Shown piece by piece: positions 6,662-7,251 of a DNA stretch of 38,403 nt. Under the pieces are notes generated by a model. That model searched no databases. It was not told the origin of the DNA and was given only the letters and a program-made list of their open reading frames with translations. The position numbers and the translations under genes were made by a program. How positions within the stretch are numbered: position 1 is the first letter of the stretch; every line of letters starts with the position of its first letter. The stretch is from a virus. The stretch lies in the UHGV virus genome UHGV-0824332; one strand, given 5' to 3'.

Positions 6662-6676
6662 TTACCCCAAAGGTAA
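6662..6676. promoter_or_regulatory. Operator site L, TTACC-CCAAA-GGTAA, upstream of the membrane-protein pair
   Basis: Perfect family palindrome 27 bp upstream of the ATG at 6703. Confidence 0.5.
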
Positions 6677-6702
6677 ACCGAGAGTTTACATGAGGGGGAA
6701 AC

Positions 6703-6891
6703 ATGGAAATCAACATCATTACATTGCTGAAGGCCATTATTGGCGGAGCGGGCTTAGGCTTTGCCCTACCAGGCGGATTATCTTTCCTGCTTCCTGCTTT
6801 TACTGTTACAGCTGGGATAGCCTATGCATTTGCTGTGGCTGGTGCTGTTGCACTCCCTGCTATCTATGCCGCAAAGAAGTTAGCCAACTAA
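6703..6891 (+). CDS. Small Gly/Ala-rich two-TM membrane peptide (62 aa), function unknown
   Basis: RBS GAGGGGG then ATG; two hydrophobic helices with GxxxG/AxxxA-like motifs and C-terminal KKLAN. Confidence 0.55.
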   Translation: MEINIITLLKAIIGGAGLGFALPGGLSFLLPAFTVTAGIAYAFAVAGAVALPAIYAAKKLAN

Positions 6892-6892
6892 A

Positions 6893-7225
6893 ATGCCTGA
6901 TTTATCTTGGCTTGCGCCCAGAGATGCACAGCAATTGACAAGGTTTTATTTCATACTGTGCATTGCTTATCTTGCTGTTCATCTGATATGGGATGCCGTT
7001 TGCAAAGATACGCCTCCTTTTTCTTTGGATAAGTTGCAATACAAGATGAATGAGGTTTATTCATCATCTACTTTTGCAACCAGCGCATTCTTCATTGTTA
7101 TTCTGTTCGATATGAAGAATCCACTGAGAACTTCAGATGCTTTCATATTCCCATTAATTATTGCTGCTCTAACTGGCTTTATGATCTCATTATCAGCAAT
7201 AGTGCCAAAGAAAGTAAATAACTGA
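6893..7225 (+). CDS. Membrane protein (110 aa, about 3 TM), function unknown, translationally adjacent to 6703 gene
   Basis: ATG 1 nt after the upstream stop; hydrophobic segments; followed by a strong terminator. Confidence 0.55.
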   Translation: MPDLSWLAPRDAQQLTRFYFILCIAYLAVHLIWDAVCKDTPPFSLDKLQYKMNEVYSSSTFATSAFFIVILFDMKNPLRTSDAFIFPLIIAALTGFMISLSAIVPKKVNN

Positions 7226-7228
7226 ATA

Positions 7229-7251
7229 AGCCCGCGTTGCGGGCTTTTTTA
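7229..7251 (+). terminator. Rho-independent terminator of the membrane-protein operon
   Basis: AGCCCGC-GTT-GCGGGCT followed by TTTTTT. Confidence 0.65.

What the first reader, a model, noticed from the sequence alone, without database searches (positions are those of the whole stretch)
6662..7251. Operator-controlled two-gene membrane cassette (62 aa Gly-zipper peptide plus 110 aa three-TM protein)
The genes are nearly adjacent (stop at 6891, ATG at 6893), preceded by a perfect TTACC-N5-GGTAA site and followed by a canonical terminator, forming a self-contained unit. The small peptide is almost entirely hydrophobic with GxxxG-type motifs and a basic C-terminus, resembling small membrane toxins or pore-formers; the partner could be an immunity or targeting factor. 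Possible roles are a toxin/immunity pair, superinfection exclusion, or an abortive-infection effector.
Basis: inference. Interest (0 to 1): 0.7.

Follow-up and report, generated by a model that had tools for sequence, protein, structure and literature searches.

The report
Repressor-wired two-gene membrane cargo in prophage
Two small, always-paired membrane-protein genes of unknown function occupy a swappable "cargo socket" of an E. coli prophage, and the socket is wired to what looks like the phage's own repressor switch, so they probably act on the cell membrane when the virus wakes up rather than while it sleeps.

Summary
Gene A (6703-6891, 62 aa, two-helix Gly-zipper hairpin) and gene B (6893-7225, 110 aa, three TM helices) are real genes under strong purifying selection. 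They are joined by TAAaATG and end at a clean terminator.

TTACC-N5-GGTAA is not a one-off. The window holds 15 copies against 0.5 expected, including sites between the divergent repressor-like and cro-like genes. It is the operator of this epsilon15/phiV10-like (Uetakevirus) prophage and overlaps the -10/+1 of a conserved sigma-70 promoter.

Promoter, operator and terminator form a fixed socket. Sibling E. coli prophages hold other cargo there, such as YafO-type toxins, DUF2335 and DUF4760 proteins.

A and B co-occur, translationally coupled, in every locus with enough sequence. These include other phage types, a 4.9-kb Aeromonas plasmid, prophage remnants at guaA, a fixed Yersinia locus and distant metagenomic bacteria.

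No Pfam, NCBIfam, PADLOC, PDB or fold match gives a function.

Best reading (inferred): an obligate inner-membrane complex carried by mobile elements, silent in the lysogen and fired on induction, acting as a membrane-level exclusion or toxin-antidote device. The toxin/immunity, exclusion and abortive-infection ideas remain untested; microcin, pinholin and serotype-conversion readings are disfavoured.

The parts
6598..6613 (+). Hairpin GGCAC-agggat-GTGCC followed by TTTAAATAATT, just after the Bro-N antirepressor stop (6589). Probably a weak terminator or insulator in front of the cassette promoter.
   Evidence: Sequence. The equivalent hairpin recurs in other loci with changes on both arms (GGCGC...GCGCC in L008, L012, L029; GGCAC...GTGCC in L038), as read. 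The simple terminator scan did not flag it.
6634..6662 (+). Sigma-70-type promoter: -35 TTGCAG (6634-6639), 17-nt spacer, -10 TACTAT (6657-6662).
   Evidence: Read. Only 7/12 matches to consensus, so the scan missed it. The layout -35 TTGCAx / 17 nt / -10 TAATAT, whose last T is the first T of TTACC, is conserved in about 12 diverged phage loci. This is inference from conservation; no transcription start is mapped.
6662..6676 (.). Operator TTACC-N5-GGTAA overlapping the end of the -10 and the expected +1.
   Evidence: Perfect palindrome. It is one of 15 copies in the window against 0.52 expected. Arms are invariant and the spacer is free across loci. The same motif sits before the 90-aa gene, the Bro-N gene and the cargo slot in E. 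coli and Klebsiella relatives, and is absent from the chromosomal Yersinia and Serratia copies.
6673..6689 (+). Second inverted repeat GTAAAC-cgaga-GTTTAC sharing the operator's right arm. Candidate 5'-UTR stem-loop just before the ribosome-binding site.
   Evidence: A hairpin at this place folds in 9 of 11 A-B phage loci with three different stem sequences (GUAAAC/GUUUAC, AUUCAAC/GUUGAAU, CCGG-type). It is weak (-4 to -10 kcal/mol, z -0.5 to -2.5), so only suggestive.
6692..6698 (+). Shine-Dalgarno GAGGGGG for gene A.
   Evidence: Sequence. GGAGG or GGGGG sits at the same place in all phage loci.
6703..6891 (+). Gene A: 62-aa two-TM hairpin protein with Gly/Ala zipper (KAIIGGAGLGFA...PAFTVT...AYAFAVAGAVA) and a KK tail.
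   Evidence: PHROG 13406, function unknown. pN is far below pS. The signature K-A-x-[IV]-[GA]-G-A-G-L recurs in partners of remote B homologues.
6889..6895 (+). Translational-coupling junction TAA-a-ATG.
   Evidence: In nearly all loci the junction is stop + 1 nt + start (ATG, TTG or GTG). The Aeromonas plasmid has an ATGA overlap and L063 an 8-nt overlap. B has no Shine-Dalgarno of its own in the window.
6893..7225 (+). Gene B: 110-aa three-TM protein with conserved H30, W33, D34, T40-P41, K51, a Ser/Thr-rich TM2, D73 and the loop N76-P-L-R79..D82.
   Evidence: AlphaFold model pLDDT 83. PHROG 36716, function unknown. The family has about 80 representatives at 50% clustering. GC is 37.5% against 48% for the window.
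7228..7251 (+). Rho-independent terminator AAGCCCGC-gtt-GCGGGCTT + TTTTAT.
   Evidence: Equivalent GC-rich hairpin plus T-run lies after B in most phage loci. Homology to TL-2011b resumes at 7224, so the terminator belongs to the conserved socket.
32922..33506 (+). 194-aa HTH repressor-type gene, the probable protein that binds the operator (trans-acting part of the circuit).
   Evidence: PHROG transcriptional regulator/repressor families and a weak RstR-family match below the curated cut-off. Operators at 32804 (1 mismatch) and 32852 lie between it and the divergent cro-like gene at 32537-32767; operators at 33564 and 33626 follow it. Binding itself is inferred.
5615..5629 (.). Sister operator at the Bro-N antirepressor promoter, with the same architecture as at A-B.
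   Evidence: The promoter-like site 5586-5615 (TTTGCA/TTGCAA ... TATATT) ends exactly where TTACC begins.

Best explanation
SHOWN:
- The window is an epsilon15/phiV10-type (Uetakevirus) E. coli prophage integrated at guaA.
- A and B are a real, translationally coupled gene pair. A is a 62-aa two-helix Gly-zipper hairpin and B a 110-aa three-helix membrane protein. They co-diverge as a unit and always occur together.
- They sit as exchangeable cargo in a fixed expression socket made of an upstream hairpin, a sigma-70 promoter, the TTACC-N5-GGTAA operator, the cargo, and a terminator.
- The same operator occurs about 15 times in the prophage, including between the divergent repressor-like and cro-like genes and at the antirepressor promoter.

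INFERRED:
1. A and B assemble into one hetero-oligomeric inner-membrane complex, with A made in equal or greater amount and B's synthesis dependent on A's.
2. The prophage repressor sits on the operator across -10/+1. The pair is therefore silent in the lysogen. It is switched on together with the antirepressor and early genes after SOS-triggered derepression or on infection of a naive cell.
3. Functionally it is a mobile-element accessory that acts on the cytoplasmic membrane. A is the oligomerising, membrane-perturbing or pore-type subunit. B is its restraining or gating partner.
4. The outcome is exclusion of competing phages during the lytic phase, and/or an antidote-dependent (addiction-like) effect. 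The latter would explain why the pair survives alone in decayed prophages and rides a small plasmid.

The biochemical activity itself is unknown.
For: Phage type and integration site:
- DNA matches to TL-2011b, phiv142-3, ZX5 and phiV10.
- The att core ATTGAGTGGGAATGATT is at 349-365; it is described as the guaA attachment site in PMC9782041.

The genes are real:
- Families are conserved across Enterobacterales, and pN is far below pS.

The pair is obligate:
- A lies directly upstream of B in all 43 loci with sequence.
- The junction stop + 1 nt + ATG/TTG/GTG is conserved, with an ATGA overlap on the Aeromonas plasmid.
- A and B distance matrices correlate at r = 0.84, with 0 of 2000 permutations reaching that value.
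- Remote B homologues (profile search, about 80 representatives) are each preceded by a small two-TM Gly-rich gene carrying the same KAxxGGAGL signature.

Operator regulon:
- 15 copies against 0.52 expected.
- Sites flank the HTH repressor-like and cro-like genes.
- The architecture at the Bro-N promoter is the same.
- Arms are conserved and the spacer is free upstream of A in diverged loci.
- The motif is absent from chromosomal copies.

Socket and cargo swapping:
- TL-2011b homology runs to 6681 and resumes at 7224.
- In 279 E. coli genomes a place covers at least 80% of the promoter/operator probe. In most listed rows the match ends at query position 117-122, that is window 6676-6681.
- Cargos there include YafO-family toxins, a DUF2335 protein, DUF4760 and several unknown small pairs.
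- A-B itself is present in 19 of 5,426 genomes.

Mobile-element lifestyle:
- In lambdoid-type contigs it sits next to a Q-like gene or after Rz.
- It is on a 4.9-kb qnrS2 plasmid.
- It lies at the edge of an RM + ImmA island.
- It lies beside hipBA at guaA.
- In Serratia fonticola it is the only surviving piece next to the guaA att core.

Induction logic:
- A near-consensus LexA box is at 5286-5305, before the 90-aa antirepressor-like gene.
Against: - Repressor binding and the OFF-in-lysogen state are inferred from site position only.
- The operator also accompanies A-B in lambdoid-type contigs, where it is the only perfect copy in the 12 kb fetched. The binding factor there is unclear.
- Some remote homologues sit among ordinary housekeeping genes, and Yersinia species keep the pair at one fixed locus. 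This fits a benign physiological role as well as a selfish or defensive one.
- One viral contig has a frameshifted B next to an intact A (L043). A is then not obviously lethal alone, although it may simply be repressed there.
Confidence: 0.4

Rival explanations
1. Benign heteromeric membrane module (small channel, transporter or membrane-homeostasis factor) of bacterial origin. The phage borrowed it as an auxiliary gene, for example to hold the membrane energised, tune lysis timing, or resist membrane-collapsing host defences during lytic growth.
For: - The family reaches distant bacteria, where the pair lies among housekeeping genes (SufE, SRP54, SpoU, DegP).
- Yersinia species keep it at one fixed locus between a CorA-family gene and an SBP_bac_5 gene.
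- B has conserved polar residues in or near its helices (H30, D34, K51, Ser/Thr-rich TM2, D73, NPLR loop), as channels and carriers do.
- A frameshifted B beside an intact A is tolerated in L043.
Against: - There is no similarity to any transporter or channel family.
- Many copies are cargo of phages, a small plasmid, islands and prophage remnants.
- The same socket in sibling phages carries toxin modules rather than metabolic genes.
Confidence: 0.22
2. Pure toxin-antidote (addiction) pair. A is a small pore-forming membrane toxin and B its membrane-embedded antidote. The main effect is post-segregational stabilisation of the carrying element.
For: - It has a two-gene coupled layout.
- It is carried on a 4.9-kb plasmid.
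- It is the sole survivor next to the guaA att core in Serratia.
- It neighbours hipBA.
- The same socket holds YafO-family toxin modules in sibling prophages.
- A resembles small hydrophobic toxins in size and composition.
Against: - Neither protein has a DNA-binding domain for autoregulation, and control comes from a phage operator.
- The presumed antidote is translated after, and dependent on, the presumed toxin, often from TTG or GTG. That is awkward if excess antidote is needed.
- If the pair is repressed in the lysogen it cannot stabilise the prophage.
- There is no homology to known TA families.
Confidence: 0.18
3. Classical lysogenic-conversion or superinfection-exclusion moron expressed from the resting prophage.
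For: - It has its own promoter and terminator and is variably present between backbone genes.
- B has atypical GC content.
- In lambdoid contigs it occupies standard moron positions.
- It encodes small inner-membrane proteins, like known Sie factors (T4 Imm/Sp from general knowledge; P22 SieA in PMC10883804, listed).
Against: - The operator overlaps -10/+1 and is the same site that guards the antirepressor promoter and the early promoters. That argues for repression in the lysogen.
- There is no homology to any Sie protein.
- The cassette pairs with many different tailspikes (endosialidase, SGNH/GDSL, Klebsiella depolymerases). It is therefore not receptor- or serotype-specific.
Confidence: 0.12
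4. Holin-like (pinholin) / antiholin pair that tunes lysis.
For: - A has two TM helices with Gly-zipper packing, like pinholin S21 (general knowledge).
- In L034 the pair follows endolysin and Rz, and in L038 it lies between a Q-like gene and the lysis genes.
Against: - The prophage already has its own lysis block at about 470-2290. Relatives show Phage_holin_3_7, Phage_holin_8 and an endolysin there.
- A lacks a dual-start motif and a long charged C-terminal tail.
- Chromosomal, plasmid and remote copies have no endolysin nearby.
- There is no holin family hit.
Confidence: 0.05
5. Orphan class II microcin (double-glycine leader MEINIITLLKAIIGG) with a downstream immunity protein.
For: GG lies at residues 14-15 with hydrophobic residues at -4 and -7. 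The rest would be a hydrophobic Gly-rich 47-aa peptide, and a small TM protein is encoded next to it.
Against: - Many homologues have AG instead of GG.
- The motif lies inside the first TM helix, and in remote homologues it is preceded by up to about 40 residues.
- None of the gene tables read for the fetched loci lists a C39-peptidase ABC exporter or a membrane-fusion protein.
- There is no Pfam bacteriocin hit at E <= 1.
Confidence: 0.03

Closest known systems
Morons of temperate phages (Hendrix/Juhala concept; e.g. lambda bor and lom, HK97 morons). From general knowledge.
   Same: An extra gene unit with its own promoter and terminator is inserted between backbone genes. It is variably present among close relatives and partly of deviant GC (B 37.5% against 48%). 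In lambdoid contigs it sits at the usual moron places.
   Different: Morons are typically expressed from the repressed prophage. Here the promoter carries the phage's own operator across -10/+1, so expression is expected only on derepression. Promoter and terminator are a permanent socket, and only the coding cargo is swapped.
Hotspots of antiviral/accessory systems in P2-like phages and P4-like satellites (PMC9122126, listed)
   Same: A fixed position flanked by conserved phage genes holds many alternative small cargo modules in otherwise similar prophages. At least 8 cargo types were seen here.
   Different: The phage family is different (Uetakevirus). None of the cargos examined here matches a PADLOC defence model. 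The socket supplies a repressor-controlled promoter.
Phage superinfection-exclusion membrane proteins: T4 Imm and Sp (early lytic; general knowledge) and P22 SieA (PMC10883804, listed)
   Same: They are small phage-encoded inner-membrane proteins without soluble domains. T4 Imm/Sp are made early in lytic growth, as predicted here.
   Different: There is no sequence or fold relationship. Here two obligately paired proteins are involved, and the pair also occurs on a plasmid and in chromosomes. No exclusion phenotype has been tested.
Small membrane toxins of toxin-antitoxin systems (GhoT, TisB, Hok; general knowledge) and the YafO-family modules that occupy the same socket in sibling prophages
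   Same: A is a short, very hydrophobic helical peptide. The layout is a two-gene unit, the carriers are mobile elements, and the genomic slot is shared with YafO-family toxins.
   Different: Known small membrane toxins are neutralised by RNAs or soluble proteins, not by a three-TM protein. There is no homology. A is two-TM and strongly conserved together with B far beyond Enterobacterales.
CI/Cro-type operator regulons of temperate phages (lambda OR/OL; multi-site repressor networks such as N15 or mycobacteriophage L5; general knowledge)
   Same: A short palindrome is repeated at many promoters, with paired sites between divergent repressor-like and cro-like genes and at early promoters.
   Different: The site is a 15-bp core TTACC-N5-GGTAA. 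It extends to accessory-gene and antirepressor promoters near the tailspike. Binding has not been demonstrated.

Membership tests
Moron (autonomous accessory unit in a temperate phage) | Own promoter upstream of the gene(s) | tested here: met
   -35 TTGCAG / 17 nt / -10 TACTAT at 6634-6662. The layout is conserved in about 12 diverged loci. No transcription start is mapped.
Moron (autonomous accessory unit in a temperate phage) | Own terminator downstream | tested here: met
   Terminator at 7228-7246 plus T-run, conserved in most phage loci.
Moron (autonomous accessory unit in a temperate phage) | Present or absent between conserved backbone genes in close relatives | tested here: met
   A-B is in 19 of 5,426 E. 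coli genomes, while the promoter region is in 344. Other cargos occupy the same place.
Moron (autonomous accessory unit in a temperate phage) | Expressed from the repressed prophage | not testable with these tools
   The operator overlapping -10/+1 argues against it. RNA-seq or a reporter assay is needed.
Toxin-antitoxin (type II-like) module | Two adjacent co-transcribed, translationally coupled genes | tested here: met
   TAAaATG junction, conserved; ATGA overlap in Aeromonas.
Toxin-antitoxin (type II-like) module | Homology to a known toxin or antitoxin family | tested here: not met
   No Pfam, NCBIfam or PADLOC hit for A or B.
Toxin-antitoxin (type II-like) module | Antitoxin with a DNA-binding domain that autoregulates the operon | tested here: not met
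   Both products are almost wholly membrane-embedded. Control is through the phage operator.
Toxin-antitoxin (type II-like) module | One product arrests growth and the other neutralises it | not testable with these tools
   Requires expression of A, B and A+B.
Class II microcin plus immunity | Double-glycine leader of conserved form at the N-terminus | tested here: not met
   G14 is replaced by A in many homologues. The motif lies in TM1 and is preceded by long N-termini in remote homologues.
Class II microcin plus immunity | Linked C39-peptidase ABC exporter and accessory protein | tested here: not met
   None appears in the gene tables read for the fetched loci. These tables cover only part of the loci.
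Pinholin / holin-antiholin | Gene located in the lysis cassette next to an endolysin | tested here: not met
   The lysis block is at about 470-2290, separated from A-B by the tailspike gene. Chromosomal and plasmid copies have no endolysin. L034 and L038 are near lysis genes, but at moron sites.
Pinholin / holin-antiholin | Two TM helices with Gly-zipper, dual-start motif and charged C-terminal tail | tested here: inconclusive
   The two-TM Gly-zipper is present. There is no dual start, and the tail is only KKLAN.
Known anti-phage defence systems (PADLOC-DB v2) | Match to a defence-protein HMM | tested here: not met
   Zero hits at E <= 1 for A and B. The other socket cargos also give no meaningful hits.
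Superinfection-exclusion membrane proteins (Imm/Sp/SieA type) | Blocks DNA entry of superinfecting phage | not testable with these tools
   Needs plating efficiency and DNA-injection assays. There is no sequence relationship.
Phage repressor operator regulon | Same palindrome repeated at several promoters, including between divergent repressor and cro genes | tested here: met
   15 copies against 0.52 expected. Sites at 32804 and 32852 lie between the HTH genes, with others at 33564/33626, 30459/30521, 5234, 5615 and 6662.
Phage repressor operator regulon | Physical binding by the repressor | not testable with these tools
   Needs EMSA, footprinting or ChIP.

The most novel reading that the evidence does not exclude
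A-B defines an ancient, so far undescribed two-component all-membrane module: a Gly-zipper hairpin plus a three-TM partner, from Enterobacterales to distant phyla. Mobile elements deploy it as a membrane switch. In this prophage it would be a repressor-gated, induction-fired effector whose 'antidote' or gate is itself an integral membrane protein. That would be a new class of membrane toxin-antidote / exclusion system. The socket would also be a previously unrecognised hotspot of induction-phase effectors in Uetakeviruses.
Probability: 0.2. Interest if true: 0.7.

Novelty: new variant of a known kind. Interest (0 to 1): 0.5.

Why it matters
If the reading is right, three things follow.

1. A small, widely distributed pair of membrane proteins with no annotation becomes a tractable candidate. 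It has no Pfam family and only function-unknown PHROGs. It could be a new membrane-acting exclusion or toxin-antidote mechanism, testable with three plasmids and a phage panel.

2. Uetakevirus prophages, found in about 6% of complete E. coli genomes here, carry a plug-and-play socket. Its promoter appears to be held by the phage repressor. Its cargo, including YafO-type toxins, would then be fired at induction rather than in lysogeny. That differs from the usual view of prophage morons and defence hotspots, and it offers a place to mine for induction-phase effectors.

3. The pair survives as the only remnant of decayed prophages at guaA and rides a small qnrS2 plasmid. This suggests a selectable or addictive function relevant to mobile-element persistence.

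If instead the pair proves to be a benign housekeeping membrane complex, the finding reduces to an ordinary accessory gene in a variable phage region.

Tried and rejected
Searches that gave nothing useful:
- Family searches (Pfam, NCBIfam, PADLOC) on A and B gave nothing usable. PHROGs gave only function-unknown families. Pfam on 83 B-family members gave only scattered noise.
- The search for related loci with the remote B subfamily failed because no conserved stretch was available.
- Literature searches for the peptide string, the RefSeq protein accessions, Uetakevirus exclusion genes and Gly-zipper prophage proteins found nothing on this pair. No cultured phage among 50,697 records encodes B.

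Ideas rejected or downgraded:
- Microcin with a double-glycine leader: see the rival explanation.
- Pinholin: see the rival explanation.
- O-antigen or capsule conversion linked to the tailspike: rejected. The identical cassette sits beside an endosialidase tailspike, SGNH/GDSL tailspikes and Klebsiella depolymerases. In phiV10 the oac gene lies on the other side of the tail-fibre gene.
- A host transcription factor binding the palindrome: none recalled fits TTACC-N5-GGTAA. This rests on memory only and was not tested.
- P0075, a 3,161-aa hit in the B profile search, is a mucin-like repeat protein and was judged spurious.
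Full report
**1. What is at the coordinates**

- A 62-codon ORF (A) runs from 6703 to 6891.
- Its TAA stop is followed, one base later, by the ATG of a 110-codon ORF (B, 6893-7225).
- A perfect TTACC-ccaaa-GGTAA lies at 6662-6676.
- A GC-rich hairpin with a T-run lies at 7228-7251.

A is extremely hydrophobic (GRAVY 1.33). Only E2, K10, K58 and K59 are charged, and it carries Gly/Ala small-xxx-small runs in both halves. B has three hydrophobic segments. An AlphaFold model built on an 83-sequence alignment gives three long helices at 12-36, 45-72 and 82-101 (pLDDT 83, pTM 0.73).

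**2. Both ORFs are real genes and an obligate pair**

Each protein has a family of homologues across Enterobacterales: Escherichia, Klebsiella, Enterobacter, Salmonella, Raoultella, Cronobacter, Obesumbacterium, Serratia, Yersinia and Citrobacter.

Codon-level comparison with ten diverged loci shows saturated synonymous but low non-synonymous change. Against Klebsiella, A has pS 0.61 / pN 0.05 and B has pS 0.89 / pN 0.08.

Loci were fetched through either protein. In all 43 with enough sequence, A lies immediately upstream of B. The one exception is cut by a contig end.

The junction is almost always stop + 1 nt + start, with ATG, TTG or GTG as B's start.
- An Aeromonas plasmid copy has an ATGA overlap.
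- A Morganellaceae-like chromosome has an 8-nt overlap.
- B has no ribosome-binding site of its own in the window.
- B's translation is therefore most likely coupled to A's (inference).

Pairwise distances of A and B correlate at r = 0.84, and 0 of 2000 permutations reached that value. The two genes diverge as one unit without partner shuffling.

**3. The family is older and wider than Enterobacterales**

A profile of B searched against 1.84 billion cluster representatives found 82 proteins at E <= 1e-3 and 53 at <= 1e-10. One of them, a mucin-like repeat protein, is spurious. The rest are 90-150 aa and share FY..W, [HN]-I-x-W-D-x-x-S-x-x-T-P-x-F, a Ser/Thr-rich second helix and conserved P and G in the third.

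Upstream DNA could be read for seven remote homologues (L048, L049, L059, L061, L063, L065, L066).
- In every case a small two-helix Gly-rich gene precedes B.
- Several carry the same signature as A. Examples are KAGIGGAGLGIAA, KAAVGGAGLALAL and KSVVAGVALGTLF, against A's KAIIGGAGLGFAL.

The pair is therefore an ancient two-gene module, not a phage invention of recent date.

**4. The inverted repeat is a phage-wide operator**

TTACC-N5-GGTAA, allowing one mismatch, occurs 15 times in the window (9 perfect). Shuffles give 0.52 +/- 0.70, and none of 100 reached 15.

| Site(s) | Context |
|---|---|
| 32804, 32852 | Between a 194-aa HTH repressor-type gene (32922-33506, +) and a divergent 76-aa cro-like gene (32537-32767, -) |
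| 33564, 33626 | After the repressor gene's terminator, at a TTGACA-type promoter heading the recombination genes |
| 30459, 30521 | Within the leftward early block |
| 5234 | Before the 90-aa antirepressor-like gene, in the small rightward island next to the tailspike |
| 5615 | At the Bro-N antirepressor promoter; the scan's promoter-like site 5586-5615 ends exactly where TTACC begins |
| 6662 | Before gene A |
| 26955 (perfect) | Within the leftward block; context not examined further |
| 201, 2135, 23810, 26937, 32467 (one mismatch each) | Remaining copies; contexts not examined further |

Upstream of A the conserved layout across about 12 diverged phage loci has four elements:
- -35 TTGCAx;
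- 17 nt of spacer;
- -10 TAATAT (TACTAT in the window), whose last T is the first T of TTACC;
- operator arms that never change, with a 5-nt spacer that is free.

That pattern indicates a protein-binding site rather than an RNA stem. A repressor bound there would occlude -10/+1.

I infer that the 194-aa repressor (and/or the cro-like protein) binds it. On that inference A-B is silent in the lysogen, like the antirepressor, and is turned on when repression is lifted.

A near-consensus LexA box (TACTGTATAAATATACAGTT, 5286-5305) sits in front of the 90-aa gene, whose product resembles antirepressor C-termini. This suggests the trigger: SOS, then the small antirepressor, then loss of repression at all operators. 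It is a coherent inference, not a demonstration.

**5. A fixed socket with swappable cargo**

The window is a Uetakevirus-type prophage.
- It matches TL-2011b, phiv142-3, vB_EcoP_ZX5 and phiV10.
- The guaA att core reported for this genus (PMC9782041) is at 349-365.

Homology to TL-2011b runs through the promoter and operator to 6681. It stops there and resumes at 7224 with the terminator and the next gene.

A 141-nt probe of the promoter region finds 344 of 5,426 complete E. coli genomes.
- In 279 of them one place covers at least 80% of the probe.
- In most of the listed rows the match ends at query position 117-122, that is window 6676-6681, the right edge of the operator.
- A-B itself is in only 19 genomes.

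Cargo found between the same promoter/operator and terminator in other prophages:

| Cargo | Example prophages |
|---|---|
| YafO-family toxin, with or without a small upstream gene | TL-2011b, AR_0372, TO6, GN04133, 3908 |
| 108-aa gene + 167-aa DUF2335 membrane protein | EC.W1-9, ZX5 |
| 210-aa protein | SCU-387 |
| 72 + 125 aa | 602687 |
| 55 + 52 aa | phiv142-3 |
| 55 + 146 aa | GF43 |
| DUF4760 protein | PKF4 |

None of the cargos scanned matches a PADLOC defence model.

In E. coli, however, the regulatory parts belong to the phage backbone, and A-B is one of at least eight alternative inserts.

Conversely, the whole unit (upstream hairpin, promoter, operator, A-B, terminator) also occurs in contigs of another phage type.
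- In L038 it lies between a Q-like antiterminator and the lysis genes.
- In L034 it lies after endolysin and Rz and before a glycosyltransferase.
- In both, the operator is the only perfect copy in the 12 kb fetched.
- Whether those phages share the repressor specificity is unknown.

**6. Where else the pair lives**

- Klebsiella, Enterobacter and Citrobacter prophages of the same architecture carry it in the same slot.
- In Serratia fonticola the pair lies next to the guaA att core. In one strain only 57 bp separate B's stop from the core and nothing else phage-like remains. This looks like a prophage remnant reduced to A-B.
- A Morganellaceae-like chromosome has A-B beside hipBA, again next to guaA.
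- Eight Yersinia species and a Sodalis-like genome keep it between a CorA-family gene and an SBP_bac_5 gene, without the operator.
- A 4.9-kb non-mobilisable qnrS2 plasmid of Aeromonas veronii carries an unannotated A-B pair.
- Of the remote homologues, one sits at the edge of an RM + ImmA/HTH island inserted in fusA. Another is next to a phage-type DUF2460 gene. Two are among housekeeping genes.
- No cultured phage among 50,697 records encodes B.

**7. What it does**

Homology gives no answer.
- There are no Pfam, NCBIfam or PADLOC hits, and only function-unknown PHROGs.
- There is no PDB sequence match.
- Fold matches are generic three-helix bundles only.

The argument is therefore from anatomy and context.
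- Shown: obligate pairing, coupling with A first, nearly complete membrane embedding of both products, and strongly conserved short loops (PAFTVT in A; WD..S..TP.F and NPLR..D in B).
- Also shown: carriage by phages, a plasmid and islands; survival as a lone remnant; a promoter carrying the phage operator; and a socket shared with toxin modules.
- Inferred: A and B form one inner-membrane complex. By the positive-inside rule, A is N-in/C-in and B is N-out/C-in, which would put both conserved loops in the periplasm.
- Inferred: the Gly-zipper hairpin A is the oligomerising, membrane-perturbing part and B its gate or restraint.
- Inferred: in this prophage the complex is produced on induction or infection. 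It then acts at the membrane, either to exclude competitors during the lytic phase (as T4 Imm/Sp do; general knowledge) or as an antidote-dependent device.

I give this composite about 0.4. The structural and regulatory parts are much firmer than the functional part.

**8. Rivals**

- A benign channel or homeostasis complex borrowed by the phage (0.22). It fits the housekeeping neighbourhoods and the fixed Yersinia locus.
- A pure addiction module (0.18). It fits the plasmid and the remnants, but not the gene order, the weak B starts, or repression in the lysogen.
- The classical prophage-expressed Sie moron (0.12). The operator position argues against it.
- Pinholin/antiholin (0.05). The phage has its own lysis block, and most copies have no endolysin nearby.
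- Microcin/immunity (0.03). It fails on the leader and on the absence of any exporter.
- Serotype conversion. It is excluded because the identical cassette accompanies unrelated tailspikes, and phiV10's oac lies elsewhere.

**9. Comparison, novelty and verdict**

- The unit works like a moron sitting in a prophage hotspot of the kind described for P2/P4 (PMC9122126). It differs in that a repressor-controlled promoter is built into the socket.
- The protein pair belongs to no described family.
- I rate it a new variant of a known kind.
- Its function is still open.
- Interest is about 0.5. The socket and the ancient pair are good, cheap experimental leads, but nothing here overturns current understanding.

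Noticed in passing
window 5286-5305: Near-consensus LexA (SOS) box TACTGTATAAATATACAGTT lies directly upstream of the 90-aa gene (5311-5583). That gene's product matches antirepressor C-terminal PHROGs. A TTACC-N5-GGTAA operator is at 5234. This suggests a LexA-controlled small antirepressor as the induction trigger.
   Followed up: partly
window 201, 2135, 5234, 5615, 23810, 26937, 26955, 30459, 30521, 32467, 32804, 32852, 33564, 33626: These are fourteen further copies (8 perfect) of TTACC-N5-GGTAA. They include pairs around the repressor-like and cro-like genes and at early promoters, forming a genome-wide operator set for this prophage.
   Followed up: partly
window 7324-7484 (+): A 53-aa gene (MKKAFAALFVLLSLVASTQAFA|GRCQ...) has a signal peptide and two Cys. 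It is conserved (WP_000708858.1) right after the socket in all E. coli relatives, whatever the cargo. It has a TTGACG-N17-TATAGA-like promoter and no operator, so it may be the gene actually expressed in lysogens.
   Followed up: no
window 7514-8365 (-): A low-GC (37%) 283-aa gene has an N-terminal signal-like sequence and its own terminator (7507-7490); it falls in PHROG 6118, function unknown. Relatives hold different genes at this position, of 99-204 aa, including a Rap1a-domain protein in Citrobacter. This looks like a second variable slot on the other strand.
   Followed up: no
window 349-365 (-); L006 6589-6605; L003/L005 10444-10460: The Uetakevirus att core ATTGAGTGGGAATGATT (3' end of guaA) marks the left prophage end in the window. 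In Serratia fonticola it lies 57 bp from B's stop, so A-B there appears to be the last remnant of a guaA-integrated element.
   Followed up: partly
L192 (Aeromonas veronii plasmid NZ_CP102109.1) 1859-2409 (-): An unannotated A-B pair with an ATGA overlap lies on a 4.9-kb non-mobilisable qnrS2 plasmid.
   Followed up: partly
L043 5811-6219; protein P0016: Natural defective copies exist. In one viral contig B is frameshifted after about codon 75 beside an intact A. A Klebsiella variant of A has an internal deletion that fuses it to an upstream ORF.
   Followed up: no
window 2814-5129 (-) versus L001 680-3799: A nearly identical A-B cassette (99.6% over the 901-nt probe) sits next to an endosialidase (K1-capsule) tailspike in E. 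coli FDAARGOS_1303. Here it sits next to a different 771-aa tailspike. Tailspike and cargo therefore assort independently.
   Followed up: partly
L014, L021, L023 (Yersinia), about 35-50 nt upstream of A: The chromosomal Yersinia copies keep TTACC-acgtt-GTATA at the position of the operator: the left arm is intact and the right arm decayed. This may be a relic of a phage origin, or coincidence.
   Followed up: no
L002 5266-6450 (TL-2011b); L057: Some relatives carry an extra P22-immI-like Arc repressor plus Ant antirepressor next to the socket. The antirepressor complement of this region therefore varies too.
   Followed up: no
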